Below, piece after piece: positions 9,851 through 62,787 of a stretch of 64,000 nt of DNA (its first letter is position 1; each line of letters starts with the position of its first letter). The stretch comes from an uncultured Elusimicrobia bacterium (GTDB lineage Bacteria > Elusimicrobiota > Elusimicrobia > Elusimicrobiales > UBA9959), in assembly GCA_903867985.1 (NCBI GenBank), contig CAIPTO010000106.1:30373-94372 (forward strand), given 5' to 3'. The position numbers were made by a program, and so were the translations under genes. The notes beneath the pieces are model-generated. The model worked only from the letters and a program-made list of their open reading frames with translations, did not search any database and was not told where the DNA came from.

Positions 9851-11590
9851 ATGAAAAAGCTTAGAATTTTACTGACTCTCTGTCTGCTGGCCGAACAGTG
9901 CGTTGTGCCGGTGGCGGTGGTCTTCGCGCAGGACTCCCAAACTCTGGAATCTGACAAGAATTTTACGCAGGATCTTCAGGGACCTTCCTCCGAGGATGGC
10001 GGACCCATACTGAATCACCCGGCCCAGGAGAATCCTCCACCCCAGACAATGCCTCAAGCCTCCACTCCCGGCGCTCCCATAGAATCCGTGCAGATCGGTG
10101 CTGTTCCCCGGGAGGCCCCAATGTACGAGGAGGCTGAAGCTATATCGCCTCTTGACCGCAAGATAGGCCCCATTAGACTTAAGGGAGCCCCCCTGTCTAC
10201 ATTCCTGGACGTGGTATCGGCGCAATCTAAGGTGAATTTCATCATCACCGAAGGTCTTGAAGCCAAAACTATCACCGTTTTTTTACGGAAGACTACTGTG
10301 CGCGAAGCTTTGGAACTTCTGCTGCGAGTCAAGGGGCTGACCTACCAGCGTATAGGCAAAAGTAACACCTATGTAGTCCAGAAACGTTCCGCCGACATGC
10401 CTAATCTGATCACCAAAATATATGTGCTGAATTATATCCCGCTGATCGCGATCGGCTCCGTGGGCGAGGACATGGCGGCCGTCACTTCCCAGGATGTGTC
10501 ATCCTCGGGCGGTTTGTCCTCGGGTGGTTCATCCTCTGGCGGATCGTCCTCGGGCGGCTCATCTTCCGGCGGCAGTCAGCAGAATACCGCCAAGGAAGAA
10601 GATAAGGGTATAGCAATCATGAGTATTATCAGAAGCGTCCTTTCAAAGAAGTACGGCAAGATGGCTAATGATCCCAGAACTAATACTCTCATAATTACCG
10701 ATGTGCCGGAAGTTTTTCCGCAAGTCGAGCAGATTATAGCCGAACTTGATAAAAAAGCTCCCCAGATACTCATAGAGGCTCAGATAGTAGAGATCAACAC
10801 GGATCGCCTTAACGAGCTTGGCATAGAATGGGGCGGCGCACGGGGCGAGATGGCGTATTTCGCCGGCCCCGCCCGCGTGACCGACTACGGCTTAAGACCC
10901 GGATTTTTTTCCGGCGACCAGTGGAAGAATTTCTTTCCGAAATCGGTTGAGACCGTGGGAACACCTCCCTCAGCCGGCAGCACGATCGACCCGGTATTCA
11001 GTACCGGGCAACTCAGTCCTAAAGGCGTATTCTACGGCATATTCAGTCTTGCGCAGCTGCAGGCCACCTTCCGGGCCCTTATTTCGCGGGGAGAGGCGCG
11101 GTACCTCGGCAAGCCCAGGATCGTAGCCATGAACAACAAGACTGCCGTTGTGACGGTTTCCAGAGATGCGGCCGTAGGGCAGAGCTCCCAGGTCTCCTCC
11201 GCCGGAGGCTCAACGGGGTCGTCCACGACCGGGGCGGAAAGACGCAGGGTAGGCTTGACCCTTAAGGTCACGCCGCAGGTCAACAAGGAAGGTTATATTA
11301 CGCTGGTTGTCATGCCCTCTTACTCCGACCTGGTCGCTTCCGCTGTCACAACCACAGGCTCCACGATATACGACCCGGTAAGCCGCGGCGCGTCCACTAT
11401 GGTCAGGGTAAAGAACGGACAAACCGTTGTGATCGGCGGCATGCTTTCTTCCACTGAGACCAAGAGCGTGAAAAAAGTGCCGTTGTTGGGTTATATTCCG
11501 ATCATAGGCTGGCTGTTCACCAGCGTCAGTTCCAGGCGCACGAATACCGATCTGGTGATTTTTGTGACACCTACTATTTTGGTAGACTAA
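9851..11590 (+). CDS. Secretin (PilQ/GspD family outer-membrane channel)
   Basis: It has a signal peptide and the secretin N-domain motif NTLIITDVPEVFPQVEQIIAELD. The C-terminal secretin core is VPLLGYIPIIGWLFTS...TDLVIFVTPTIL. Confidence 0.85.
   Translation: MKKLRILLTLCLLAEQCVVPVAVVFAQDSQTLESDKNFTQDLQGPSSEDGGPILNHPAQENPPPQTMPQASTPGAPIESVQIGAVPREAPMYEEAEAISPLDRKIGPIRLKGAPLSTFLDVVSAQSKVNFIITEGLEAKTITVFLRKTTVREALELLLRVKGLTYQRIGKSNTYVVQKRSADMPNLITKIYVLNYIPLIAIGSVGEDMAAVTSQDVSSSGGLSSGGSSSGGSSSGGSSSGGSQQNTAKEEDKGIAIMSIIRSVLSKKYGKMANDPRTNTLIITDVPEVFPQVEQIIAELDKKAPQILIEAQIVEINTDRLNELGIEWGGARGEMAYFAGPARVTDYGLRPGFFSGDQWKNFFPKSVETVGTPPSAGSTIDPVFSTGQLSPKGVFYGIFSLAQLQATFRALISRGEARYLGKPRIVAMNNKTAVVTVSRDAAVGQSSQVSSAGGSTGSSTTGAERRRVGLTLKVTPQVNKEGYITLVVMPSYSDLVASAVTTTGSTIYDPVSRGASTMVRVKNGQTVVIGGMLSSTETKSVKKVPLLGYIPIIGWLFTSVSSRRTNTDLVIFVTPTILVD
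10499..10573 (+). repeat. Five 15-nt in-frame repeats encoding (S/L)SSGG within the secretin
   Basis: The five units are tcatcctcgggcggt, ttgtcctcgggtggt, tcatcctctggcgga, tcgtcctcgggcggc and tcatcttccggcggc. Confidence 0.85.
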
Positions 11591-11596
11591 TAATGC

Positions 11597-11671
11597 AGTG
11601 ACGAGTGGATAGTGGCTGGTGGACAGTAGTGGATAGTTACAGAACGTAGATCTTTTATTCACTGACCAGTG
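11597..11671 (+). repeat. Heptad array (AGTGNNN)x5 starting 7 nt after the secretin stop, with a CACTG..CAGTG partner
   Basis: AGTG at 11597, 11604 and 11611, GGTG at 11618 and AGTA at 11625 give an exact 7-nt period. CACTGACCAGTG lies at 11660-11671. Confidence 0.6.
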
Positions 11672-11683
11672 TTATTTAATATT

Positions 11684-13429
11684 ATGGCTCGAAAAAGACT
11701 CGGCGAAATAATGGTGGAAGCGGGCTGGATAACCGAAGACCAGCTTGTTAAGGCGCTCAAATTCCAGCAGCAGAATCCGTGCCTTATCGGCGAAGCTATC
11801 GTAAAAATGCACTTTTCCAACGAGGAGAAGGTTGCGATGGCTCTGTCTAAACAATTAGGCGTCCCTTACGCTTCCAGAGAAAATCAGATACTTAACCCTG
11901 AAAAGGGCCAGACCCTTGAAAAGATGATATCTGAGAAATTCGCGCGAGAGCACGTGGTGATACCGCTTTTTATCGAGAACAATGTTCTGGCCGCCGCCAT
12001 GACGGATCCGGCCAACATCCTGCTTGTCGACAATATAAGGCTGGTCACCGGGATGGATGTGCAGCCTTTCATCGCCACTAAAGCGCAGATCCTTAAAGTG
12101 ATAGATTCTTTCTACCAGGGCGCCACCGACCTCATTGACAGGGTTATGGATGCTGCGGGCCAGAGCAAGGGAGAGACCTCCGACAGCGACGTTATTACTG
12201 CTGACGGAAAGCTTGACCTTGACAAGGTCATCATGGGGGAGTCCAAAGGCGCGCAATCTATAAAACTGGTCAACGCTATATTAAAACAGGCAATATCCGA
12301 ACGGAGCAGCGATATTCATCTCGAAAAATTTGATGAAAAAGTCTCTCTTCGATTCCGTATAGACGGTGTGCTCTACGAACGCAGCGCCCCTCCAGGCGAT
12401 CTGGTGGACGCCCTGATCTCCCGCGTTAAGATACTTTCAAAATTGGATGTTTCAGAGCGCCGGCTACCGCAGGACGGCAGTTATTCCATAAAATATCAGA
12501 ACCGGATCATTGAAATTCGCGTATCGGTCTGCCCGACTGTCTTCGGGGAAAAGATGGTTCAGCGTCTTCTCGATAAAGGCGCCGTGGAACTTAATATCGA
12601 AAAACTCGGCTTTGAACCCCGGCAAAGCGCCGACTTCCTGAAGGCTGCGTCCGCGCCGCACGGCCTTATCTTCCTCACCGGACCCACGGGCTCCGGTAAG
12701 ACTACTACTCTGAACTCTGTTCTCAATACCATAAAATCCCCGGAACTCAATATCATGACTCTGGAAGATCCCGTGGAAATAAAGATGGAGGGAATAAGTC
12801 AGGTACAAATAAAACCGCAGATCGGCCTTACTTTTGCCACAGGGCTGCGCTCTTTCCTGCGTCAGGACCCCGATGTCATCCTGGTCGGCGAGGTCCGCGA
12901 TGATGAAACAGCTGAAGCCTGTCTTAAAGCCGCCATGACAGGCCATCTTGTGCTTTCCACGCTGCATACCAATAGCGCTCTTGAGGCGATTCCCAGATTG
13001 ATCGACATGGGTATTGAAAACTACCTTTTAGCCAGCACGCTGCTCTGCCTGGCGGCCCAACGACTGGTGCGGCAGCTTTGCCCTGAATGCAAGCAGCCGT
13101 ACAGACCGCCTAAAGAGGAAATCGATCAGATGATGGCTGAATGTCTGCTGAACCCGCTCCCCGATCCTGCAAGGCTGATGTTCTACAAACCCAAAGGATG
13201 CCCCAAATGCTCAAATATGGGCTATAAGGGCCGCAAGGCCATCTATGAGGTCTATTTCAACACCGAGGAAATGAAGCGAATCATTTTCAAGGACGCTGAT
13301 ATCCACAAACTGGACGAAGCCGCAAGAAAAAGCGGAGCCTGGGGGCTCAGGGCCAGCGGTTGGCGCAAGGTTATTGCCGGTCTCACCTCCGTGGATGAGA
13401 TGCTTTCGGTAACGGTTACTGAACGCTGA
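11684..13429 (+). CDS. pilB: Type IV pilus / T2SS assembly ATPase (PilB/GspE family)
   Basis: Walker A is GPTGSGKTTT. The Asp/His boxes include LRQDPDVILVGEVRD and LVLSTLHTN. The Zn motif is CPECKQ...CPKC, and the N-terminus has a T2SSE_N/MshEN-like domain. ATG at 11684 is preferred to GTG at 11669. Confidence 0.9.
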   Translation: MARKRLGEIMVEAGWITEDQLVKALKFQQQNPCLIGEAIVKMHFSNEEKVAMALSKQLGVPYASRENQILNPEKGQTLEKMISEKFAREHVVIPLFIENNVLAAAMTDPANILLVDNIRLVTGMDVQPFIATKAQILKVIDSFYQGATDLIDRVMDAAGQSKGETSDSDVITADGKLDLDKVIMGESKGAQSIKLVNAILKQAISERSSDIHLEKFDEKVSLRFRIDGVLYERSAPPGDLVDALISRVKILSKLDVSERRLPQDGSYSIKYQNRIIEIRVSVCPTVFGEKMVQRLLDKGAVELNIEKLGFEPRQSADFLKAASAPHGLIFLTGPTGSGKTTTLNSVLNTIKSPELNIMTLEDPVEIKMEGISQVQIKPQIGLTFATGLRSFLRQDPDVILVGEVRDDETAEACLKAAMTGHLVLSTLHTNSALEAIPRLIDMGIENYLLASTLLCLAAQRLVRQLCPECKQPYRPPKEEIDQMMAECLLNPLPDPARLMFYKPKGCPKCSNMGYKGRKAIYEVYFNTEEMKRIIFKDADIHKLDEAARKSGAWGLRASGWRKVIAGLTSVDEMLSVTVTER

Positions 13430-17809: not shown

Positions 17810-17876
17810 GCCTCCCGAACGTGCGGTCCGCTATGTTGGCGGAAAGTTGGAACCGCAGCTTGGGGGTTAACCTGAA
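17810..17876 (+). repeat. Half copy (3' module) of the ~190-nt structured repeat, directly abutting copy A
   Basis: GCCTCCCGAACGTGCGGTCCGCTATGTTGGCGGAAAGTTGG...GGTTAACCTGAA aligns with 17994-18054 of copy A. Confidence 0.6.
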
Positions 17877-18056
17877 TCCTGCAGTTCAAGGTATATCCCA
17901 TTGATAAAATCAGGGAACAGAATTATTCTGCAGGATTCCCCGCAAAGCGGGCGGAGGGACCAGCGCTATGCGCGCCTGGCCCGACGAGGTGTATGCCTCC
18001 CGAATGGGCGCCCGCTATGCGGGCGGAAAACTTCAACTGAAGTTTTCAGGTTAATC
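17867..18056 (+). repeat. ~190-nt structured repeat, copy A (candidate ncRNA or MITE-like element)
   Basis: Termini TTAACCTGAA (17867-17876) and TTCAGGTTAA (18045-18054) are complementary. The inner stem is ATCCTGCAG/CTGCAGGAT. There are several GC hairpins with TAT loops. It is about 80 percent identical by eye to the reverse complement of 43301-43487. Confidence 0.7.
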
Positions 18057-20871: not shown

Positions 20872-20961
20872 GCAGAAGCAGAGGGGGGGCGAGAAGGGCA
20901 GAGTGAAATGTGAATTTCCTCACTCTCTACCCTAACCCCTAGACCCTGAACCCTCCCTATC
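20872..20961 (-). repeat. Heptad inverted-repeat element, (AGGGTNN)n type, spanning the nadB stop and the nadB-uvrA spacer
   Basis: On the + strand, CTACCCT, AACCCCT, AGACCCT and GAACCCT lie at 20927-20954 with an exact 7-nt period. The core hairpin is AGAGTGA 20900-20906 / TCACTCT 20920-20926. A purine-rich partner arm lies at 20872-20906. Confidence 0.65.
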
Positions 20962-26809: not shown

Positions 26810-28666
26810 ATGAGAAATACGACTCTTTTCCTGGCGATAATTTTCAGCTTTTCGTCCGTTTCTTATGCCGGCTTAAGCATAGGGCTGCCTGGCGCAATAA
26901 AAAAACAGGTGCGCAGACTGGATAAAAAAGTGCTGTCTGCCCTAAAAAGGAACGGCGCGCCAACGTCCTTGTCCGCCCAGGCAGGCAATGCCGCGGCTGA
27001 AATAACATGGACATCCGTGTCAGGCGCCTCCTCGTATAATTTGTATTGGGGCAACACTCCGCAGCAGGCAACGGGGACCGGGAACAAGGCGTCCCTGGTA
27101 ACCAGTCCATACTATCTGACGGGGTTGGCGAACGAAGTGACTTATTATTTTGCAATTTCTTCGGTGGCGGACGATGTGGAATCAAATCTCACACCAGTCG
27201 CACATATGAGCCCTTCGTTTTTGCTGCCATTGCGGCCCGAAGGCGTTGCCGGCGTCAGCGGAATCGGGGAAGTTACCCTGATCTGGAATTCAGTTCCGGG
27301 GGCCGCCTTTTACAATATATACTGGGGCGCCGCGTCAGGGGTGACAAGCGCGTCAACGAAAATCAGCAGCGCAAGCGCCCCTTACGCGCACACCGTATCG
27401 GCATACGGGCAGACATATTATTACAGGGTATCCGCCCTGAACGCCGCGGGCGAGTCGCTTTTGAGCGCGGAGACGCGCGGCCGGTCAATAGGCGTTAACG
27501 ACTTGAACTGGTCTGACAAAAACCGGCGTATTTTAAACCAGTTGGTAACAGATTATGGCTTTGGCGGGCAGCATTATAGTATCGAAAAACCCCCGTATGC
27601 CGTTCTTGACTGGGATCAGACATGCGCCTATTTAGACGTGGAAGAAGCCATGATGCGGTATCAGTTGTTTCATCTTGTATACAAACTTACAAAAGATGAG
27701 TTCAGGGATTTGCTGAAAGACAGCATCAACGGAATAACCCAATTATCGCAAGGCTATCAAAATGTGCGGCTTACCGATATCAATCGGGATCTTATAGCTG
27801 ACTATGATTTTCTATATGATAATTTCTCCGGATTTAACGGCGCGATGACTATTGAAGAAATACGGGAGACGCTTCAGTATAAGGATTTTATCGCAAAGAT
27901 CCCCTTTTTATATGCCGGATATTGCGAAACGCCTGGAATCGGAGCCGACTACGGCTATCCCTGGGTCCTTTATCTGTTCGAGGGGTTTACGACAGATGAA
28001 GTAAAAGTCCTGGCCAGAGAAGTCATCGCATACGAACTCGGCAACAGTATCAGCGAACAAACACTGCAGTCGCCCGCGAACTTGCCCACTAACGCCGGAG
28101 CTGTCAGCTATTCCTATAAAACAGGATTACGCGTTTTCCCGGAGATGCAAAAACTTATTTCCACGTTTAAAACCCATGGGATCGACGTTTTTATCGTGTC
28201 GGCGAGCTATAAACCCGTAGTTGAGGCGTTTTCCGGGATAGGCGCCTACGGGTATAATATATCAGCCGAAAAGATAGTCGCGATGGAGCTGGCTACCGGA
28301 AGCGATGGCAAAATTCTTCCCGGGTATAAAGCGGGATGGGTTAAAACATTCAGGCAGGGAAAGGTTGACGCTGTTAATATGGCAATCAAGACGGGACTTG
28401 GCAAAAACTGGGATCCATTATTTTCCGCCGGAGACAGTGACGGAGATTATGAAATGTTGACAGGCTTTCCGGATATGAAGTTATCATTGGTCTGGAACCG
28501 GGTAAAAGGCGGGGATATTGGGAAACTTTGCAGACTGGCTGTAGATGAGGCCTCCGGCGTTACGCCGAGATATATTCTTCAGGGGCGTAATGAAAACACC
28601 GGCGCGGTCATCCCGTCCATGGAATCTATTCTTTTCGGAAAGACCGAACCGCAGCTGCTGTATTGA
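26810..28666 (+). CDS. Secreted protein: two FN3-like domains plus a HAD-superfamily (subfamily IB-like) hydrolase domain
   Basis: It has a signal peptide and two units of the type AEITWTSVSGASSYNLYWG...YYFAISS / VTLIWNSVPGAAFYNIYWG...YYYRVSA. HAD motif I is DWDQT (DxDxT) and the C-terminal motif is GDSDGDYEML. Confidence 0.55.
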   Translation: MRNTTLFLAIIFSFSSVSYAGLSIGLPGAIKKQVRRLDKKVLSALKRNGAPTSLSAQAGNAAAEITWTSVSGASSYNLYWGNTPQQATGTGNKASLVTSPYYLTGLANEVTYYFAISSVADDVESNLTPVAHMSPSFLLPLRPEGVAGVSGIGEVTLIWNSVPGAAFYNIYWGAASGVTSASTKISSASAPYAHTVSAYGQTYYYRVSALNAAGESLLSAETRGRSIGVNDLNWSDKNRRILNQLVTDYGFGGQHYSIEKPPYAVLDWDQTCAYLDVEEAMMRYQLFHLVYKLTKDEFRDLLKDSINGITQLSQGYQNVRLTDINRDLIADYDFLYDNFSGFNGAMTIEEIRETLQYKDFIAKIPFLYAGYCETPGIGADYGYPWVLYLFEGFTTDEVKVLAREVIAYELGNSISEQTLQSPANLPTNAGAVSYSYKTGLRVFPEMQKLISTFKTHGIDVFIVSASYKPVVEAFSGIGAYGYNISAEKIVAMELATGSDGKILPGYKAGWVKTFRQGKVDAVNMAIKTGLGKNWDPLFSAGDSDGDYEMLTGFPDMKLSLVWNRVKGGDIGKLCRLAVDEASGVTPRYILQGRNENTGAVIPSMESILFGKTEPQLLY

Positions 28667-34780: not shown

Positions 34781-34848
34781 AGGATTAAATACAGAGGATT
34801 AAGAACTGATCTTTCGCCGACCGCTTAATCCTTACGACTTATCGCTTA
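34781..34848 (-). repeat. Heptad inverted-repeat element, TAAG type, in the kdsB-pyrG spacer
   Basis: On the + strand, CCGCTTA, ATCCTTA, CGACTTA and TCGCTTA lie at 34821-34848 with an exact 7-nt period. The last TTA is the kdsB stop codon. The partner units are AAAGGATTAAATAC and AGAGGATTAAGAAC at 34779-34806. The 9-bp stem is AGGATTAAG/CTTAATCCT. Confidence 0.7.
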
Positions 34849-43274: not shown

Positions 43275-43300
43275 ATTTTTTCATCGCGTTTTTCGGAATG

Positions 43301-43487
43301 ATTAACCTGAAAGTTGCAGGTGCGACTTTCCGCCTGTATAGCAGGCGCCCGATCGGGAGGCATACATCTTCTCGGATACATCGCGCATAGCGCTTGATCC
43401 TCGACCCGCTGCTGCGGGGAATCCTGCAGAATAATTCTGTTACTCGATTTTATCAATGAGATATACCTTAATCTGCAGGATTCAGGC
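43301..43487 (-). repeat. ~190-nt structured repeat, copy B (inverted relative to copy A)
   Basis: The reverse complement aligns with 17870-18056. The element begins directly after the deacetylase TAG stop (43487-43489) and ends 27 nt before the GT9 ATG. It is therefore co-oriented with the flanking - strand genes. Confidence 0.7.
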
Positions 43488-50390: not shown

Positions 50391-51674
50391 TTAGCGGGAG
50401 GGGAACTGAGAGGTTATTTCTTTCAATGTTAGCGCGGTGGCGCCCTTTAGCGCTTCAAGGGCAGCTTTGGCGGCGATTCCGGCTTCCTTAAGGGCAGCGG
50501 GATCTTTTAGAAGTGAAATTGTTTTATCGGCAAGTTCATCGGCGGTACATACCATGAAGCCGCCGTTCCTATTCATAAGAGCCTGGGCGCCTTCCTGAGT
50601 ATGCTTTATATTCGGGCCGAAAAGCACAGGTTTCGCGAGCGCGGCAGGCTCAAGCACATTGTGCCCGCCCGTATCGTCCAGCGTGCCTCCCACGAACACA
50701 ACATCGGAGTAGGAATAAATATCAGCCAAGCGGCCGAACTCATTAACCAACAGGCAGTCAGGGCCCGGCCGGGCGTGCGCGCGCTGGGACCAAAGCGGGG
50801 CTATCAAGCCTTTGTTCCGGATCCTGGATGCGGTTTCTGAAGCTGTTTCCGGATGCCTGGGGGCTATTATCATCCGGGTATCCGGGAGAGCCTCTTTGAT
50901 CTTAATGAACGCCTCCAATATCACGTTTTCTTCAGCCGGGTGAGTGCTTCCGGCGCAGAATATTTTTTTATCCTTCCAGCCTGCCGCCTCAATAAACTCC
51001 ATAATCGCAGCGCGGCCCTGCGGCTGCAGATCCACCAGATCGTGTTTTATGTTGCCCGTAAGCGTCAGCTTTTCCGCCCCGCCCAGCAGGAGATCGTATC
51101 GTTCCAAGTCGCCGCGGCTCTGCGCGGCTATCTTGCAGATATTGGCGAACATGAGGCGCGAGAGAGGTGAAAACAGCCGGTAAAAGCCCAGGGTGCGCGC
51201 TGAGATACGCGCGTTTATTATCATAACATTGACTCCTGCTTTGCCTGCCGCGTAAAGCAGGTTGGGCCAGAGCTCGGTCTCGGCTATCAGCAGCAACTCC
51301 GGACGCGCCGCGGCTATAAAACGTCTCATAAGGGGATAGAAATCCAACGGAAGCAGGAAAGCGTGAGTCGTCAGCCTGAGGGCTTCCGCCCGTCCTGAGG
51401 AGGTGGAAGTAGTGATCATTATCGGCCTTGACGGGCAGCGCTCACGCATTAAAGGCAGGATCTTGCGGAGCGCCTTAACCTCACCTACCGATGCTGCGTG
51501 AAACCAGAGCGGGCGCTCGGAGAAAGAGGGCACGGTGATGGCGAAGCGTTCTCTAAGCTCCGCCAACAGGTTATTCAGCAGGCTGCGCCGGGGGGAAAAC
51601 AAGAAAAAAACCAGATAGAGCGCCGCGATAAACGGCGCAAGGAGATTGTAAAGAATTAACAATAAAAAGCCCAT
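50391..51674 (-). CDS. waaA: 3-deoxy-D-manno-octulosonic acid (KDO) transferase
   Basis: LWFHAASVGEV, ETELWPNL and GGTLDDTGGHNVLEPA motifs. Confidence 0.9.
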   Translation of the reverse strand: MGFLLLILYNLLAPFIAALYLVFFLFSPRRSLLNNLLAELRERFAITVPSFSERPLWFHAASVGEVKALRKILPLMRERCPSRPIMITTSTSSGRAEALRLTTHAFLLPLDFYPLMRRFIAAARPELLLIAETELWPNLLYAAGKAGVNVMIINARISARTLGFYRLFSPLSRLMFANICKIAAQSRGDLERYDLLLGGAEKLTLTGNIKHDLVDLQPQGRAAIMEFIEAAGWKDKKIFCAGSTHPAEENVILEAFIKIKEALPDTRMIIAPRHPETASETASRIRNKGLIAPLWSQRAHARPGPDCLLVNEFGRLADIYSYSDVVFVGGTLDDTGGHNVLEPAALAKPVLFGPNIKHTQEGAQALMNRNGGFMVCTADELADKTISLLKDPAALKEAGIAAKAALEALKGATALTLKEITSQFPSR

Positions 51675-51699
51675 AGTTCAGGGAGTAATGATCAAGGAT

Positions 51700-51793
51700 T
51701 AAGCACTAAGGATTAAGTGATAAGAATTAATTTTTTTACCTATGTCTTACGACTTACAGCTTACACCTTATAATTTATCCTTATCACTTAATC
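51700..51793 (-). repeat. Heptad inverted-repeat element, TAAG type, filling the DUF374-waaA spacer
   Basis: On the + strand, TAAG lies at 51700, 51707, 51714 and 51721 (TAAT at 51728). CTTA lies at 51746, 51753, 51760, 51767, 51780 and 51787. The 14-nt perfect complement is 51711-51724 / 51780-51793, which overlaps the TGA stop at 51784-51786. Confidence 0.75.
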
Positions 51794-52413
51794 AGTTCCA
51801 GAGCTTCAGCCCCAAGCGAGTTTAAAGCCTGCTCCAGTTCTTCGGCCTTGGCCGGTATGGAATCAGTTTCGGAAACGCTGATAGGGTCGCCATAGACGAT
51901 CGCGGCTTTGCCGAAGGGCAGTGGGAATTCAAAATTATCCCAGGAATTAAAAGTGATCTTGCGCGAGAGTCCTACTCCGGTAGGCAGTATTTTCATGCCG
52001 GTCCTCTGAGCCAGATAGATGACGCCCTGCTGGACTTTTCCCTTAGGCCCCTTTGGGCCATCGGGCGTAATTGCCACCGGGAAACCGGCGGCCGCGCGCT
52101 CTATGAGCTCCATGAGGGATTGGGAGGCGCCTCGGCTGGTGGAACCTCTGACGGTATTGTGCCCGAACTTGCGCAGCACTCTGGCCATGTATTCTCCATC
52201 AGTGCTTTTACTGACCAGCGCTGATATGCCCATGCCGCGGTGAGAATAAAGCATGAAGGCCAGTTGTGAATGCCAAAGGGTGTATATGAAGTCGGCGTTC
52301 TCCGGCCTGTTTTCCCATCTTAACCGCGTGGTAGCGCCTGTGAATAATATATATAGATACGCCAGGAACGGCAGAATGGAATGCAGGGGGCTTGAGTGCG
52401 TAGACTCATTCAT
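51784..52413 (-). CDS. DUF374 / lysophospholipid-acyltransferase-like protein
   Basis: LWHSQL, SKSTDGEYMARV, VRGSTSRG and ITPDGPKGP are present. The ATG at 52413 overlaps the upstream gene by 8 nt. The longer track ORF is rejected. Confidence 0.7.
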   Translation of the reverse strand: MNESTHSSPLHSILPFLAYLYILFTGATTRLRWENRPENADFIYTLWHSQLAFMLYSHRGMGISALVSKSTDGEYMARVLRKFGHNTVRGSTSRGASQSLMELIERAAAGFPVAITPDGPKGPKGKVQQGVIYLAQRTGMKILPTGVGLSRKITFNSWDNFEFPLPFGKAAIVYGDPISVSETDSIPAKAEELEQALNSLGAEALELIK

Positions 52414-53083
52414 CTTGTTTGATTGCCTGCGCCGGCGTTGGCGTAGCCTTGCCGGCTGCAGCGGAACCCACACCCGGCTTCTTCTTTTTCTTGGCCAGCC
52501 AGGGTATGCTGAAGACAAGTGAATATTTTGGGCTGAGTGAACCGCAGTTCAGGCTGACCCCGACATGCCCGGCATTAAGGCGGCTTAGTATCGCCGCAAG
52601 CGTATCCGGATCTGACTGGTAAATCGGTTCATTTTCCGTCTCTGGTTTTGGGCAGGCGTATATATAGCGCGGGTCGCCGAGATCCAGCCCTTCGGCGGAG
52701 ACTTCCTGGGCGATAAGTTCGGACACCACTTTAAGACCTGTTTCCGCGAATACAAGCGCGGCAGTTTCGGCGAGCCTGAAAAGCTCCGGGTCGGTTATGG
52801 CATTCAGCTTCTCTTCGAAGGCCGCCCCGAGCGTTATGATCCCGACAGTTCCGGCCCCGCCGTTCGTGAGCCCGTCCTTTTTAGCCAGGTCGTCCTCCGG
52901 TGTCAGGAGGTCGAACATCGTGGAGGGTTCCAGGGCCGCGGCGATGGAGGCTACGTATTCCTTGGCGCTTTCCTGATCGGCCAGGCCCAGAGCGAACAGG
53001 TCTATCTTGCGCTTTTTAGCCTTGCGCAATATATCGTAGGTGTATATCGGTATCTTGAACTTCTTGATTTTTCTCACGGTCAC
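52406..53083 (-). CDS. Hypothetical protein with basic N-terminus and poly-Lys tail
   Basis: 225-aa ORF lying 9 nt after the secF stop and overlapping the DUF374 start. It contains AKKKKKPG near the C-terminus. I recognise no family. Confidence 0.5.
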   Translation of the reverse strand: MTVRKIKKFKIPIYTYDILRKAKKRKIDLFALGLADQESAKEYVASIAAALEPSTMFDLLTPEDDLAKKDGLTNGGAGTVGIITLGAAFEEKLNAITDPELFRLAETAALVFAETGLKVVSELIAQEVSAEGLDLGDPRYIYACPKPETENEPIYQSDPDTLAAILSRLNAGHVGVSLNCGSLSPKYSLVFSIPWLAKKKKKPGVGSAAAGKATPTPAQAIKQDE

Positions 53084-55843: not shown

Positions 55844-57019
<1,176 letters not shown>

Positions 57020-57057
57020 TTATGCTAATTATTGCTGATTCCTGCCCCGCTGTCGTA

Positions 57058-58116
57058 CTAGCTTATAAACATCGCGTCGCCATAGGAATAGAACCTGTAT
57101 TTTTTATCCACGGCCTCTTTATATGCATTAAAAAGAAGGTTCCGGCCTGCGAACGCGGCGGTCATGTAGAGCGGCGCGGAAGAGGGCACGTGCAGATTAG
57201 TGAGGAAAGCACCCGCGATTTTAAACCTGTAGCCCGGATAGATGAAGAGTCCGGCTTGCCCCTCACCCGGCAGGAGCCTCCCGGACTCGTCCGAAAAAGT
57301 TTCCAAAGTCCTCATGGACGAAGTTCCAACTGCTATTATCCTGCGTCCTCTTCCCTTTGCGGAATTGAGGGCGTCAGCAGTTTCGGCTGACAGAGAGCAC
57401 TCCTCGGCAAGCATCACGTGCGCCGCCGGATCTTCGCCGCGTACGGGCTTAAACGTGCCCCAACCTATATGCAGAGTTACGTAGCGCACCTCAACGCCTT
57501 TCGCTCGTATCGCACTCAGCAGTTCAGGTGTAAAGTGGAAGCCGGCTGTCGGAGCGGCGATGGATCCTGGAACCGCGGCAAAAACTGTCTGGTAACGGGA
57601 GTCGTCAGGAGTTTCGCTTTCCCCTGCCTCGTTCTTTTTTCTTGCTTTAAGGATGTACTGAGGCAGCGGGACTTCGGCGTTATACTCCAGGTAAGCCTGG
57701 TCGAGAGGGCAAGAAAGAGTGAACAGAAAACTGCCATCCGGATTTTGACGCAAACAGACGGCTTTTGCCCCGCCTCTGCAGATAAGCGTCTGGCCGGGCT
57801 GGATCTTGCGGGCCAGCGCGCTCCATGTTTTCAGGTCCGCGCTTTCCGGCTTGATCAGCAGCAGTTCAGACTTGCCTCCCGTGGGTTTCAGGGCGGGCAG
57901 TTTAGCCTTCCAGACCTTGCTGCGGTTAAGTACCAGGATATCTCCGGGCAACAGGAGGTCCGGCAAGTCGCTAAAAACTTTGTGCTCTGTATTTTTGCCG
58001 GCGCGGTTAATGATTATAAGCCTGGAAGAGTCCCTCGGTTCAGCCGGTCTGGCCGCTATGAGGGGGTCAATGTACAAACTGTCAAATTCTGTAAGGGCGG
58101 CCTCAGTCATTAACAT
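57058..58116 (-). CDS. queA: S-adenosylmethionine:tRNA ribosyltransferase-isomerase
   Basis: PRDSSRL, GSIAAPTAGFHFT, VTLHIGWGTF and AVGTSSMRTLE are present. Confidence 0.95.
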   Translation of the reverse strand: MLMTEAALTEFDSLYIDPLIAARPAEPRDSSRLIIINRAGKNTEHKVFSDLPDLLLPGDILVLNRSKVWKAKLPALKPTGGKSELLLIKPESADLKTWSALARKIQPGQTLICRGGAKAVCLRQNPDGSFLFTLSCPLDQAYLEYNAEVPLPQYILKARKKNEAGESETPDDSRYQTVFAAVPGSIAAPTAGFHFTPELLSAIRAKGVEVRYVTLHIGWGTFKPVRGEDPAAHVMLAEECSLSAETADALNSAKGRGRRIIAVGTSSMRTLETFSDESGRLLPGEGQAGLFIYPGYRFKIAGAFLTNLHVPSSAPLYMTAAFAGRNLLFNAYKEAVDKKYRFYSYGDAMFIS

Positions 58117-59242
58117 CCCCTATTGATGTTCCGGGGTAATACTGGCGGAGTATTTTTTTATAGTTCTTTCCGTTCAGAGCCATGTGCTTGGCGCCTTCTT
58201 GACACATCCCCACGCCGTGCCCCCAGCCCCGGCCGTAGAATTCATAGCCGCCGCTGCCAGGGGTAATCCGCGTGATAAAAGTGCTTTTTATATCATAGGT
58301 GCCGAAATTTTTGCGCAATTCCGCAGCTGCCGCGGTGAACGAGCCGGCGTCGGTCGCGAATTTCAGTTTCAGGGCGCGGCCGGAACGGTCGCGCTCGGAT
58401 ATTCTAACTCCCTTTATTTTCAGGGCGGAGGAGCCTTTTTTCTGGATAAAAGAGAGAAGATCCCGGGCCGTAGCGTAATACTCCCAGCTGGAATGGATAG
58501 AGTCGGAGCAAAAAGGGTCTCTGACGCCGTAAAGAGGTTTTATTACGTCTTCGCCCCACGCGGAACTTGCGCTGGCCGTGTGGCCTCCGCAGCAGGCGTG
58601 AAAAAAAGCGGTTATAAGCTTTTCCTTATACTTCAGCACTTCGCCGCGGGTGGATCTGACCGCGTCGATGATGCGGGAATTCATTCCGGAGGCGCCGTTG
58701 TAGACCTGTGTTTCCACTCCGTCCGTTATATCGTAGTCCTTCTTCGGATCGATGTTTTTTAGCGCGTAAGTGCGCGAGGCAACGGCTTGAGCCTTCAGGG
58801 CTTCCAGCGGCCAATCCGGACTCATTTCCACGGGCAGTACTCCGCAGAGATAATCTTCGACGGAGAGATGTTCTATAACCTCCAGTTTCTCGGCGGCGGT
58901 CGTCTTCATGTATAGATCGCCTTTATAAAAGTGTCCGTTGATTTTAACGCAGTCGCCGCCATCCGCGGCCAACAGCTTAACAGGCGACTCCAGCGTCTCG
59001 CCGGCCACGGCGAGATGCGTGGGATTGACGTATTTGACTTCGTATATGGACCTTTCCAGCAACATATATTTTTGCCCGGTCTTAACCTCCAGCGCGTAAA
59101 CTTTGGCTGAGGTGACGAGTTTGAATTGATTGGTATTGCGGGAGATAGCGACCCGGATAACGGAGGGGATTTCCTCTCCGGAGCCGGCTGCGGAGTTGAG
59201 GGGAGCGAACGATAACATTGCGCAAAGAAAGAGTCGTATCAT
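58103..59242 (-). CDS. SpoIID/LytB-domain protein
   Basis: It has a signal peptide, AQAVASRTYAL, FHACCGGHTAS and GHGVGMCQEGA. Confidence 0.8.
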   Translation of the reverse strand: MIRLFLCAMLSFAPLNSAAGSGEEIPSVIRVAISRNTNQFKLVTSAKVYALEVKTGQKYMLLERSIYEVKYVNPTHLAVAGETLESPVKLLAADGGDCVKINGHFYKGDLYMKTTAAEKLEVIEHLSVEDYLCGVLPVEMSPDWPLEALKAQAVASRTYALKNIDPKKDYDITDGVETQVYNGASGMNSRIIDAVRSTRGEVLKYKEKLITAFFHACCGGHTASASSAWGEDVIKPLYGVRDPFCSDSIHSSWEYYATARDLLSFIQKKGSSALKIKGVRISERDRSGRALKLKFATDAGSFTAAAAELRKNFGTYDIKSTFITRITPGSGGYEFYGRGWGHGVGMCQEGAKHMALNGKNYKKILRQYYPGTSIGDVND

Positions 59243-61459: not shown

Positions 61460-61540
61460 AGGGTATAGAGGGGTGAGGGTCCAGGGTTTAGGAACCCTGT
61501 ATTTGCCGCGCTATACCCTCCACCCTGATCCCTATACCCC
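61460..61540 (-). repeat. Heptad inverted-repeat element, AGGGT type, in the yebC-ruvC spacer
   Basis: On the + strand, ATACCCT, CCACCCT, GATCCCT and ATACCCC lie at 61513-61540 with an exact 7-nt period. The G-rich partner is 61460-61493. Nested stems are GGGTATAG (61461-68) / CTATACCC (61532-39) and CAGGGTT (61482-88) / AACCCTG (61493-99). Confidence 0.7.
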
Positions 61541-62297: not shown

Positions 62298-62573
62298 AAT
62301 CGGCTCCTTTGCCTCCAGAGGGCTGGAGGATCAGAGGACTGGAGGATCGGCCGCAGCGGTTTACATCCTGCTGGTCCAAAATGCTGATAATCCTCAGTCG
62401 TCTCTATCACATCGTTGAAATTCAACTTTTGCACGCGACTCAGTAAATAAATTCTATAATAATATGCGGTCTTTCACAAGACCCGCGGATGGCTTATTAG
62501 TGATCAGCGGCAAGTGTTAAGGCAACCGAAGCATTATCGATGTCCGCGACTAGCCGCTAAACATTTGATTTAT

Positions 62574-62683: not shown

Positions 62684-62787
62684 GCCATTCGCCGTTTGCC
62701 ATAGGCCGTACGCAGAAAGCCCATGCAGAAGGCTCATAAGGGAATCTCTTTAAAAGTTTATGGCTAATGGCATAAGGCAAATGGCGG
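62684..62787 (+). repeat. Heptad inverted-repeat element, GCCRT type, between tRNA-Arg and the next gene
   Basis: GCCAT at 62684, GCCGT at 62691, GCCAT at 62698 and GCCGT at 62705 have a 7-nt period. The inverted partners are ATGGC at 62760, ATGGC at 62767, AAGGC at 62774 and ATGGC at 62781. Confidence 0.7.

What the first reader, a model, noticed from the sequence alone, without database searches (positions are those of the whole stretch)
51675..51793. Spacer built from two opposed arrays of 7-nt repeats, (TAAGNNN)5 and (NNNCTTA)7, starting at a stop codon
The whole 109-nt DUF374-waaA spacer is periodic. On the + strand, TAAG sits at 51700/07/14/21 (TAAT at 51728). After an A/T-rich 11-nt centre, CTTA sits at 51746/53/60/67, then 51780/87. 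The arms are mutually complementary, with a perfect 14-mer at 51711-51724 versus 51780-51793. The distal arm runs through the TGA stop of the upstream gene. Seven is not a codon multiple, so this is not coding repetition. TAA every 7 nt places stops in all three frames on both strands. The same hairpin-of-heptads architecture recurs with different 4-5 nt cores at 34781-34848, 20872-20961, 61460-61540, 62684-62787 and 11597-11671. Each of these begins at or within a few nt of the upstream stop or RNA gene. I know of heptamer STRR repeats in cyanobacteria. HutP-type oligomeric proteins read triplets spaced 7 nt apart. I do not recognise this inverted, stop-anchored layout as a described element class.
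Basis: seen in the sequence. Interest (0 to 1): 0.72.

Follow-up and report, generated by a model that had tools for sequence, protein, structure and literature searches.

The report
Inverted heptamer-repeat hairpin between two genes
The spacer between two cell-envelope genes of an uncultured Elusimicrobiota bacterium really is built from two opposed arrays of 7-base repeats, but this is a local example of the intergenic heptamer repeats already reported in many bacteria (including as inverted pairs in Xanthomonas), whose function is still unknown.

Summary
The 109-nt DUF374-waaA spacer consists of a (NNNTAAG)n array and a complementary (CTTANNN)n array on the transcribed (-) strand. A 17-bp stem contains the TGA stop. 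Period 7 is the only enriched short period in this window's intergenic DNA (z=6.4; z=4.7 without this spacer). Five further sites have the same layout with other cores.

The claim of a new class is not supported. Intergenic tandem heptamers are reported as the most abundant short-period repeat in prokaryotes. In Xanthomonas, degenerate (GGGANTN)n arrays occur as convergent inverted pairs about 28 nt behind the upstream ORF, and their length varies between relatives. This is a new member of that kind in Elusimicrobiota, with several non-G-rich cores.

Comparison with relatives shows fast turnover. Arrays differ by 14- and 21-nt indels. The core differs at the same junction in related species. 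More distant relatives have tight junctions or plain hairpins there. One distant relative carries two homologous copies at different loci.

There is no canonical terminator, promoter or Rfam match. Evidence for an RNA-level role is inconclusive. My best reading is a slippage-driven heptamer palindrome that acts at most as a generic stem-loop next to the stop codon.

The parts
51784..52518 (-). DUF374 gene (upstream cistron). It ends ATT AAG TGA TAA.
   Evidence: ORF list; Pfam PF04028, E=2.4e-25.
50391..51674 (-). waaA, Kdo transferase (downstream cistron).
   Evidence: Pfam PF04413, E=1.3e-47. The ATGGGC start is conserved in relatives.
51745..51793 (-). Sense-strand 5' array (NNNTAAG), about 8 units: GATTAAG TGATAAG GATAAAT TATAAGG TGTAAGC TGTAAGT CGTAAGA CATAGGT. 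It reads as CTTA repeats on the + strand. It overlaps the last 3 codons and the TGA stop of DUF374.
51731..51744 (-). A/T-rich centre between the two arrays.
51682..51730 (-). Sense-strand 3' array (CTTANNN), about 6-7 units. It reads as TAAG repeats on the + strand and ends about 8 nt before the waaA ATG.
   Evidence: TRF period 7, 7 copies.
51777..51793 (-). 5' strand of the 17-bp stem. It contains the TGA TAA stops and pairs with 51711-51727.
   Evidence: RNA fold, -28.5 kcal/mol, z=-1.97; inverted repeat I1.
51711..51727 (-). 3' strand of the 17-bp stem.
34781..34848 (-). Second TAAG/CTTA-type heptad hairpin, in the kdsB-pyrG spacer. The kdsB TAA stop lies in the first heptad.
61460..61540 (-). 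AGGG/CCCT-type heptad hairpin filling the yebC-ruvC spacer.
20872..20961 (-). AGGG/CCCT-type heptad hairpin in the nadB-uvrA spacer. Its 5' arm overlaps the last ~30 nt of nadB.
11597..11671 (+). AGTG(G)/CACT-type heptad hairpin between the genes at 9851-11590 and 11669-13429.
62684..62787 (+). GCCR/YGGC-type heptad hairpin, 36 nt downstream of tRNA-Arg. Here the pyrimidine-rich arm comes first.

Best explanation
Identity. The spacer is a degenerate inverted pair of heptanucleotide repeat arrays, a 'heptad palindrome'. It is one of about 6-7 such elements in this 64-kb window of an Elusimicrobiota genome. It belongs to the known, functionally unexplained population of intergenic heptamer simple-sequence repeats. 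Its closest described counterpart is the convergent (GGGANTN)n pairs of Xanthomonas.

Origin and turnover (inferred from comparisons).
- The element grew inside a formerly tight DUF374-waaA junction.
- It expands and contracts in 7-nt steps by replication slippage.
- Units are homogenised within and between arms around a lineage 'master' heptad, GATTAAG here. The clade-wide pattern is roughly NNARGGN.
- The core can drift at a fixed locus.
- Whole hairpins are occasionally copied to other loci.

Consequence (inferred, not shown). The element lies inside a co-directional gene pair and has no promoter or terminator of its own. It is therefore probably transcribed with the operon. It would then fold into a stem-loop whose base contains the upstream stop codon. 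It would behave as a generic stop-proximal hairpin. By analogy with REP elements within 15 nt of a stop codon, it could protect the upstream 3' end, or impede termination and uncouple translation of the two genes. It would not act as a sequence-specific signal.
For: Architecture and significance.

Period specificity: inverted pairs of 4-mer arrays across 1.53 Mb of window plus loci number 18 at period 7 (two of them, in L036, look like GC-rich chance matches inside genes), against 0-4 at periods 5, 6 and 8-11. They occur in Elusimicrobiota, Nitrospirota, Acidobacteriota and Thermodesulfobacteriota.

Position: arrays start 0-25 nt after an upstream stop in co-directional gene pairs.

Derived state: relatives at 59-74% waaA identity have junctions of -1 to 7 nt (L003, L005, L006/7). 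L004/L088 carries an ordinary hairpin at the same place.

Slippage-type turnover: gaps of 21 and 14 nt occur between window, L001 and L081 in the focal array (A1). At the tRNA-Arg site the window has 4 heptads and L081 has 2.

Core drift at one locus: yebC-ruvC carries AGGG/CCCT in window and L081 but TTAAGGA/CTTAATC in L082. The two unit types differ at only 2 of 7 positions, and intermediate units are present.

Master heptad: GATTAAG makes up 16 of 49 units across six TAAG-type elements.

Inter-locus copying: L008 elements at 2025 and 9076 agree at 22 of 24 variable positions.

No canonical terminator or promoter in the spacer. No Rfam family.

Literature: heptamers dominate prokaryotic intergenic repeats and a polymerase-slippage idea has been proposed. 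Xanthomonas inverted pairs near ORF 3' ends vary between species. REPs less than 16 nt from a stop stall ribosomes (citing Liang et al. 2015).
Against: - Pure local slippage does not predict the same master heptad at many loci, in species 86-91% identical, and in a relative with only 49% waaA identity. It also does not predict near-identical copies at two loci. Some copying process or sequence preference is acting that I cannot name.
- Nothing here explains why the period is 7.
- The RNA-level role is not established. In the window the sense strand folds better than the antisense at 7 of 7 sites, and 15 control spacers show a mean difference of about 0. In relatives only 3 of 8 elements show this bias.
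- Spacer sequence identity to relatives (0.52-0.90) is not clearly above that of 4-fold degenerate sites (0.69-0.80) or of a non-heptad spacer (0.84). Selection on the element is therefore not demonstrated.
- The focal fold is only marginally better than shuffles (z=-1.97). Only 17 bp pair well, and five inner heptads have no partner.
- No expression data are available.
Confidence: 0.6

Rival explanations
1. A dispersed, mobile palindromic element family (REP-, BIME- or MITE-like). It would insert next to stop codons and be mobilised in trans. The heptad periodicity would be a property of the element's arms.
For: - L008 carries two homologous copies at different loci, with 22 of 24 variable positions identical and unrelated flanks.
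- L082 has a TAAG/CTTA hairpin in the queA-tgt spacer, where the window has a 56-nt non-periodic spacer.
- Non-orthologous TAAG-type elements share exact 14-16-mers and the same master heptad.
- Two loops share the 11-mer AGATCTTTTAT.
- The niche, just after stops in co-directional pairs, is that of REPs.
Against: - The two TAAG-type copies within the window share only 11-mers, and lengths range from about 65 to 120 nt.
- Identity between non-orthologous TAAG elements is about 70-75%. That is barely above the ~68% expected from a fixed 4-of-7 core.
- I saw no defined termini, no target-site duplications and no GTAG/CGTC head.
- The core change at yebC-ruvC is explained by a two-substitution drift with intermediate units.
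- No transposase was identified, though the full genome was not available.
Confidence: 0.2
2. A selected RNA regulatory hairpin with a specific job. Candidates are an mRNA 3'-end stabiliser or processing site between DUF374 and waaA, or a device in which the ribosome terminating on the stop codon inside the stem remodels the structure and sets waaA translation.
For: - The stop codon lies inside the 17-bp stem.
- Stems start 0-15 nt after stops at the five mRNA sites.
- In the window the sense strand folds better at 7 of 7 sites, with 36 versus 13 G-U pairs, unlike control spacers.
- Relatives lacking heptads often have an ordinary hairpin in the same spacer: L004/L088 at DUF374-waaA, and L083/L085 at queA-tgt.
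- REP precedent.
Against: - The strand bias fails in relatives, 3 of 8.
- L081 has replaced the centre and most of the 3' arm while waaA stays 91% identical.
- Many relatives have no spacer at all.
- The waaA start codon is not in the stem.
- There is no U-tract.
- Sequence conservation is no greater than for other spacers.
Confidence: 0.25
3. A multivalent binding array for an oligomeric nucleic-acid-binding protein that reads a short motif every 7 nt. This could be a HutP-, TRAP- or CsrA-sponge-like protein on RNA, or a DNA-binding protein.
For: - Strict 7-nt spacing of a 4-nt core with free intervening bases.
- The purine-strand units in this clade loosely share NNARGGN.
- Single, unpaired arrays directly upstream of start codons occur in Nitrospirota loci.
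- Authors working on Nostoc and Beggiatoaceae have speculated about binding proteins.
Against: - Cores differ between sites in one genome (TAAG, AGGG, AGTG, GCCA) and between phyla.
- The arrays come as complementary pairs that would sequester the motif.
- Array lengths and units vary freely between close relatives.
- No candidate protein was identified.
- HutP's UAG motif is not the core here.
Confidence: 0.1
4. A non-B DNA element: a G-quadruplex/i-motif or a cruciform acting on replication or transcription, as proposed for the Xanthomonas and Nostoc G-rich heptamers.
For: - The sites at 61460 and 20872 carry four or more G3 tracts at 7-nt spacing, like the GGGAATC repeats that form G4 in vitro.
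- The polarity (purine-rich arm 5' on both strands) is a strand-symmetric property. That fits a DNA-level feature.
Against: - The focal element and the 34781, 11597 and 62684 sites have no G-tracts yet share the same architecture. G4 therefore cannot be the unifying principle.
- The tRNA-Arg site has the opposite polarity, as do several elements in other phyla.
Confidence: 0.07

Closest known systems
Xanthomonas GGGAATC / heterogeneous (GGGANTN)n intergenic heptamer repeats (Rehm et al. 2015, PMC4692102)
   Same: - A heptad with a conserved core and variable positions.
- About 90% intergenic, mostly between co-directional genes.
- Close to the 3' end of the upstream ORF (mean 28 nt).
- 70-75 cases per genome are convergent inverted pairs able to form stem-loops.
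- Same loci but different lengths and sequences in related species.
- Function unknown.
   Different: - The core here is A/T-rich TAAG, with no G4 potential.
- Several different cores coexist in one genome.
- The phylum is different (Elusimicrobiota).
- The arrays fill the whole short spacer and overlap the stop codon.
Intergenic tandem heptamer repeats / heptanucleotide long SSRs of prokaryotes (Mrazek et al. 2007, as cited in PMC4679880; SPADE survey, PMC6344855)
   Same: Period 7, intergenic, enriched over other periods, and found across phyla. A polymerase-slippage origin has been proposed. [quoted passage not shown]
   Different: Those surveys score near-perfect direct tandem arrays. Here the units are degenerate (68% matches) and organised as complementary inverted pairs.
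Cyanobacterial STRR heptamers and Beggiatoaceae TAACTGA repeats (PMC4679880; Nostoc preprint 10.1101/2022.06.06.494920)
   Same: Short tandem heptamers in intergenic DNA next to start or stop codons. TAA-containing units give stops in all frames. A role in translation has been proposed but not shown.
   Different: Those are direct repeats of one defined heptamer, predicted to be unstructured. They are not complementary two-armed arrays with variable positions.
REP/BIME elements of Enterobacteria and Pseudomonas (PMC3733652; PMC12306157, citing Liang et al. 2015)
   Same: Dispersed imperfect palindromes in intergenic DNA just after stop codons. They are transcribed within operons. Copies within 15 nt of a stop codon stall ribosomes, and REPs protect mRNA 3' ends.
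   Different: REPs are 20-40 nt, have a conserved GTAG/CGTC head, have no 7-nt periodicity, and are linked to RAYT transposases. None of these features was seen here.

Membership tests
Intergenic heptanucleotide SSR (prokaryotic tandem heptamers) | Head-to-tail units of 7 nt | tested here: met
   TRF reports period 7, 7.0 copies, 68% matches at 51682-51730. TAAG occurs 4 times and CTTA 4 times at exact 7-nt spacing.
Intergenic heptanucleotide SSR (prokaryotic tandem heptamers) | Longer or more frequent than chance, and specific to period 7 | tested here: met
   8 loci against 1.2 in shuffles; 4 against 0 for chains of >=4 copies. Periods 5, 6 and 8-12 give 0-3 loci. Intergenic z=6.4.
Intergenic heptanucleotide SSR (prokaryotic tandem heptamers) | Copy number changes in unit steps between relatives | tested here: met
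   21-nt and 14-nt gaps in the focal array (A1). 4 versus 2 heptads at the tRNA-Arg site. A 6-nt gap is also present.
Xanthomonas-type heterogeneous heptamer inverted pairs | Conserved core plus variable positions within each unit | tested here: met
   NNNTAAG / CTTANNN units.
Xanthomonas-type heterogeneous heptamer inverted pairs | Two arrays in convergent (inverted) orientation close together | tested here: met
   Arms 22 nt at 91% complementary. 18 paired arrays at period 7 in 1.53 Mb against 0-4 at other periods.
Xanthomonas-type heterogeneous heptamer inverted pairs | Intergenic, adjacent to the 3' end of the upstream ORF | tested here: met
   The array overlaps the DUF374 stop. Other sites start 0-25 nt from a stop.
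Xanthomonas-type heterogeneous heptamer inverted pairs | G3 tracts able to form a G-quadruplex | tested here: not met
   The focal core is TAAG, with no G-tracts. G-tracts are present only at 61460 and 20872.
Xanthomonas-type heterogeneous heptamer inverted pairs | Hundreds of copies per genome | not testable with these tools
   Only 64 kb of this genome is held, with 6-7 elements in it. Same-species contigs had no DNA on file.
Cyanobacterial STRR | Tandem copies of STRR1-3 heptamers (CCCCAGT, TTGGTCA, CAACAGT; recalled from memory) in heterocystous cyanobacteria | tested here: not met
   The units here are GATTAAG and variants, and the organism is Elusimicrobiota. An ACTGTTG array, STRR3-like, was seen only in a Terriglobia locus, L065.
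REP/BIME | 20-40-nt imperfect palindrome with a conserved GTAG or CGTC head, in many near-identical copies | tested here: not met
   The element is about 110 nt with no conserved head. Copies in the window share only 11-mers.
REP/BIME | Associated RAYT (Y1) transposase in the genome | not testable with these tools
   The full genome is not available.
MITE | Defined terminal inverted repeats, target-site duplication, near-identical copies | tested here: inconclusive
   There are no defined ends or duplications in the window elements. However, L008 has two homologous copies at different loci.
Intrinsic (Rho-independent) terminator | G+C-rich stem followed by a U-tract | tested here: not met
   No terminator-like site in 51675-51793 on either strand. 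The stem is A/U-rich and is followed by CUUAGUGC...
HutP/TRAP-type protein-binding triplet array | One fixed triplet (UAG for HutP) at regular spacing, read by a cognate oligomeric protein | tested here: not met
   The core is UAAG here and AGGG, AGUG or GCCR elsewhere in the same genome. The arrays are self-complementary. Whether a cognate protein exists could not be tested.
Any Rfam RNA family | Covariance-model match at or above the gathering score | tested here: not met
   Only tRNA-Arg in the window. The focal region gives only sub-threshold chance hits to plant miRNA hairpins.

The most novel reading that the evidence does not exclude
Heptad palindromes are a cross-phylum class of self-renewing elements next to stop codons. 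Each lineage would maintain its own master heptads (about NNARGGN in Elusimicrobiales) through an active, sequence-aware copying or homogenising process. The 7-nt period would reflect a conserved molecular ruler in the replisome or in the terminating ribosome. The elements would tune termination and re-initiation at operon junctions. The present data show cross-phylum occurrence, shared master heptads over deep divergence, core replacement at fixed junctions, and inter-locus copies. None of these is explained by plain slippage.
Probability: 0.15. Interest if true: 0.7.

Novelty: new member of a known kind. Interest (0 to 1): 0.36.

Why it matters
Intergenic heptamer repeats are reported as the most abundant short-period repeat in prokaryotic genomes, and no function or cause for the period of 7 is known.

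This locus adds three points.
- The inverted-pair, stop-proximal architecture described for G-rich repeats in Xanthomonas also exists with A/T-rich and other cores. G-quadruplex formation therefore cannot be the unifying principle.
- The architecture occurs in at least four further phyla, known mostly from metagenomes.
- At a fixed gene junction, the arrays appear, change core, change length in 7-nt steps and disappear over short evolutionary distances.

The practical consequence is for annotation. Such spacers should be labelled as heptamer SSR palindromes. They should not be called terminators, sRNAs or new element classes.

Tried and rejected
1. Shine-Dalgarno link. Genes behind heptad hairpins lack an SD near the ATG, and the purine arms look SD-like (UAAGGA, GGAGGG, AGGUGA). 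However, only about 12 of 49 genes in the window have an SD with dG <= -5. The association is not significant, and heptads in other phyla are not SD-like.

2. RNA-level strand asymmetry. It holds at 7 of 7 sites in the window and is better than in control spacers. It fails in relatives, 3 of 8. I treat it as inconclusive.

3. 'Purine arm first' polarity. This is a strand-symmetric property, so it says nothing about transcription direction. The tRNA-Arg site and several elements in other phyla have the opposite polarity.

4. Conserved loop motif. AGATCTTTTAT is shared by two loops and GATCT occurs in several others. It is absent from the focal loop and GATCTTTT is common in coding DNA. It remains unexplained.

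5. Purifying selection on the spacers. Their identity to relatives is not clearly above 4-fold-site identity or a non-heptad spacer.

6. More sequence from the same species. The look-up of encoding contigs returned gene maps but no DNA. L091 matches the window for only 1.4 kb.

7. Canonical terminator, promoter or Rfam family in the spacer: none.

8. Mrazek 2007 could not be read directly. It is cited only through two papers that summarise it.
Full report
**What is there.**
The window comes from an Elusimicrobiota MAG. The nearest waaA relatives in the species-representative genome collection are Elusimicrobiota/Elusimicrobiales MAGs, at 92% amino-acid identity for L001 and 71-74% for L002-L005.

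Both genes flanking the finding are on the - strand. DUF374 lies at 51784-52518 and Kdo transferase waaA at 50391-51674. They sit inside a long co-directional run: yebC-ruvCAB-spoIID-queA-tgt-yajC-secDF-hyp-DUF374-waaA. The 109-nt spacer is 51675-51783.

Read on the sense strand, the gene ends ...ATT AAG TGA TAA. The sequence then continues as GATTAAG TGATAAG GATAAAT TATAAGG TGTAAGC TGTAAGT CGTAAGA CATAGGT. An A-rich centre follows, then CTTATCA CTTAATC CTTAGTG CTTAATC CTTGATC ATTACTC, and then 8 nt to the ATG. The best RNA structure is a 17-bp stem, 51777-51793 with 51711-51727. This stem contains the stop codons. Five inner heptads are left unpaired. The energy is -28.5 kcal/mol, z=-1.97 against shuffles.

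**Is it more than chance?**
- 4-mer chains at exact spacing 7 with >=3 copies occur at 8 loci in the window. Periods 5, 6 and 8-12 give 0-3 loci and composition-preserving block shuffles give 1.2.
- Chains with >=4 copies occur at 4 loci, against 0 in 60 shuffles.
- Over all intergenic DNA of the window (3.3 kb), the self-match excess at period 7 is z=6.4. It is z=4.7 after removing the focal spacer. Period 14 also stands out, as does period 13 (z=4.8), for which I have no tested explanation. Periods 2-6 and 9-12 do not, and period 8 is weak (z=2.4).
- The element is not an assembly artefact. Three assemblies have the identical 109-nt spacer length, and other metagenomes carry related versions.

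**Relatives.**
I fetched waaA loci from genomes (L001-L080) and tgt loci from metagenomes (L081-L092).

At the DUF374-waaA junction:
- L001 and L081 are about 87% nucleotide-identical to the window and about 91% to each other. Both keep a TAAG/CTTA hairpin.
- L001 lacks 21 nt (3 units) of the 3' arm and 6 nt of the 5' arm.
- L081 lacks 14 nt. Its centre and most of its 3' arm are replaced by unrelated sequence.
- L082 has a 267-nt spacer with a CAGGT/ACCTG heptad hairpin just before the ATG.
- L004/L088 has an ordinary hairpin followed by a T-run.
- L083-L085 are non-periodic.
- L003, L005 and L006/7 have junctions of -1 to 7 nt.

At the yebC-ruvC junction:
- The window and L081 carry AGGG/CCCT units.
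- L082 (92% YebC identity) carries TTAAGGA/CTTAATC units.
- L083/84 carry a different hairpin.
- L086, L087 and L090 have spacers of only 10-16 nt.
- In alignment, the two unit types differ at two of seven positions (ATAGGGA versus TTAAGGA), and L082 contains intermediate units. In-situ concerted change is therefore a sufficient explanation.

At other junctions:
- At the tRNA-Arg site the window has four GCCR units in the first arm and L081 has two.
- L082 also has a TAAG/CTTA hairpin in the queA-tgt spacer, where the window has a non-periodic 56-nt spacer.

Across six TAAG-type elements, GATTAAG is the dominant unit, 16 of 49. L008 is a distant Elusimicrobiota relative with 49% waaA identity. 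It carries AAGG/CCTT and CCCTATA arrays of the same general type. Its two AAGG/CCTT hairpins, at 2025 and 9076, agree at 22 of 24 variable positions despite unrelated flanks. Whole elements can therefore be copied between loci.

**Beyond the phylum.**
In 1.53 Mb of window plus fetched loci, inverted pairs of 4-mer arrays number 18 at period 7, against 0, 4, 2, 3, 0 and 1 at periods 5, 6, 8, 9, 10 and 11. Two of the 18 (in L036) look like GC-rich chance matches inside genes. The remainder are in Elusimicrobiota, Nitrospirota (L034, L055), Acidobacteriota (L039, L065) and Thermodesulfobacteriota (L054, three). Using a crude ORF call, most arrays start 0-25 nt after an upstream stop in co-directional gene pairs.

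**What is known.**
- Mrazek et al. 2007 found heptanucleotide repeats to be the most abundant long-SSR class in most prokaryotic genomes. They proposed that about 7 nt interacting with the DNA polymerase favours slippage. I know this only through the summary in PMC4679880 and the discussion in PMC4692102.
- The SPADE survey of 7006 genomes states that tandem heptamers are the most abundant intergenic periodic repeat. [quoted passage not shown]
- Rehm et al. 2015 describe about 186 GGGAATC-type arrays per Xanthomonas genome. The arrays are often heterogeneous (GGGANTN)n and 89-93% are intergenic. They lie a mean 28 nt from the upstream ORF and 160 nt from the downstream one. In 70-75 cases they form convergent inverted pairs with stem-loop potential. 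Most are transcribed and sit at the same loci in two species with extensive length and sequence variation. No function was found. That is the architecture seen here.
- Direct TAACTGA repeats in Beggiatoaceae and direct heptamers in Nostoc have been proposed, without proof, to affect translation.

**Mechanism.**
Shown here:
- period-7 specificity;
- complementary arms;
- indels in 7-nt multiples;
- core differences at orthologous junctions;
- absence of the element from more distant relatives;
- inter-locus copies in L008;
- no canonical terminator or promoter;
- no Rfam family.

Inferred:
- The element is a derived expansion inside a formerly tight, probably translationally coupled junction.
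- It is generated and remodelled by slippage, with homogenisation between units and arms.
- It is transcribed with the operon.
- It folds into a hairpin whose base the terminating ribosome must melt.
- By analogy with REP elements fewer than 16 nt from a stop codon, which stall ribosomes and lower upstream expression (Liang et al. 2015, as summarised in PMC12306157), it may damp DUF374 termination, uncouple waaA translation, or protect the upstream 3' end.

I could not establish an RNA-level role. The sense strand folds better than the antisense at 7 of 7 window sites (36 versus 13 G-U pairs), unlike 15 control spacers. Only 3 of 8 elements in relatives show this bias. Spacer identity to relatives is 0.85, 0.52 and 0.90. 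That is not clearly above 4-fold-site identity (0.69-0.80) or a non-heptad spacer (0.84).

**Rivals.**
- Mobile REP- or MITE-like family (0.2). The L008 duplicate, the extra element in L082 and the shared 14-16-mers favour it. The lack of defined ends, the lack of near-identical copies in the window and the low excess identity argue against it.
- Specifically selected regulatory hairpin (0.25). This is not exclusive of the main reading.
- Periodic protein-binding array (0.1). Multiple cores within one genome and self-complementary arms weaken it.
- G4 or cruciform DNA (0.07). G4 cannot apply to the focal TAAG element.

**Verdict.**
The interpretation as an undescribed class is not supported. 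This is a new member of a known but unexplained kind: the intergenic heptamer SSR in its inverted-pair form. It comes from a new phylum and has non-G-rich cores.

Three points may be worth following up:
- G4 cannot be the common denominator of this architecture.
- The same architecture appears in several phyla known mainly from metagenomes.
- Master heptads persist over deep divergence while individual loci turn over quickly, which plain slippage does not explain.

**Limits.**
- Only 64 kb of the genome is available.
- ORF calls in other loci are crude.
- Alignments of repeats inflate identity.
- There are no expression data.
- Mrazek 2007 and Liang 2015 are cited second-hand.

Noticed in passing
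window 17871-18050 (+) and 43275-43455 (-): A ~180-nt non-coding repeat is present twice in inverted orientation in two intergenic regions, at about 85% identity. It is strongly structured (the 43275-43486 spacer folds at about -79 kcal/mol). It has no Rfam match. It could be an sRNA gene family or a small mobile element.
   Followed up: partly
L008 2025-2111 and 9076-9174: Two homologous AAGG/CCTT heptad hairpins sit at different loci of one distant Elusimicrobiota genome, each starting at a stop codon. 22 of 24 variable positions are identical. About 10 nt of the preceding coding sequence is also similar (GCCGCYCCCG).
   Followed up: partly
window 11648 and L082 4937: The loops of two unrelated heptad hairpins share the 11-mer AGATCTTTTAT. 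Several other loops contain GATCT (34781 site, L083, L088). The focal loop does not.
   Followed up: partly
L081 4058-4339 (next to tRNA-Arg at 4342-4416): Relative to the window, about 280 nt are inserted directly after tRNA-Arg. The insert is flanked by a duplicated tRNA 3' end (GAACCCTCTAGGGGGCACAATTT). This looks like the remnant of an element integrated at the tRNA.
   Followed up: no
L082 about 3335-3834: Three tandem copies of a ~241-nt unit lie between tRNA-Arg and yebC. A related inverted copy lies near 6448.
   Followed up: no
window 62316-62348: A 16-nt tandem repeat, CAGAGGACTGGAGGAT x2, lies in the region upstream of yebC (TRF score 59).
   Followed up: no
window 26810-28666: This is a 618-aa protein. 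Its C-terminal ~63% is 60-74% identical to ~420-aa HAD-family/'phosphoserine phosphatase' proteins, and the few that carry a source name are from Bacteroidota. Full-length relatives are rare. It may be a fusion or a horizontal acquisition.
   Followed up: no
window, all gene starts: Shine-Dalgarno use appears weak. Only about 12 of 49 starts pair with the anti-SD at dG <= -5 kcal/mol.
   Followed up: partly
L019 6349, L026 6418, L060 2764, L070 6410, L055 6304 (Nitrospirota waaA neighbourhoods): Single, unpaired heptad arrays fill the short spacer between a stop codon and the next ATG at what looks like the same gene junction in several Nitrospirota. The core differs in each genome (GAAG, GACA, AGTGCGG, GAATGC, CAAAT).
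   Followed up: partly
L091 1-8683: This metagenome contig is 100% identical to the window over 1.4 kb (56834-58228) and then has no similarity. It is either a rearranged strain or a chimeric assembly.
   Followed up: no
window 10499-10572: A 15/30-nt tandem repeat (TCCTCGGGCGGTTCG-like, 2.5-4.7 copies) lies inside the ORF 9851-11590. It is in frame and probably encodes a repetitive peptide segment.
   Followed up: no
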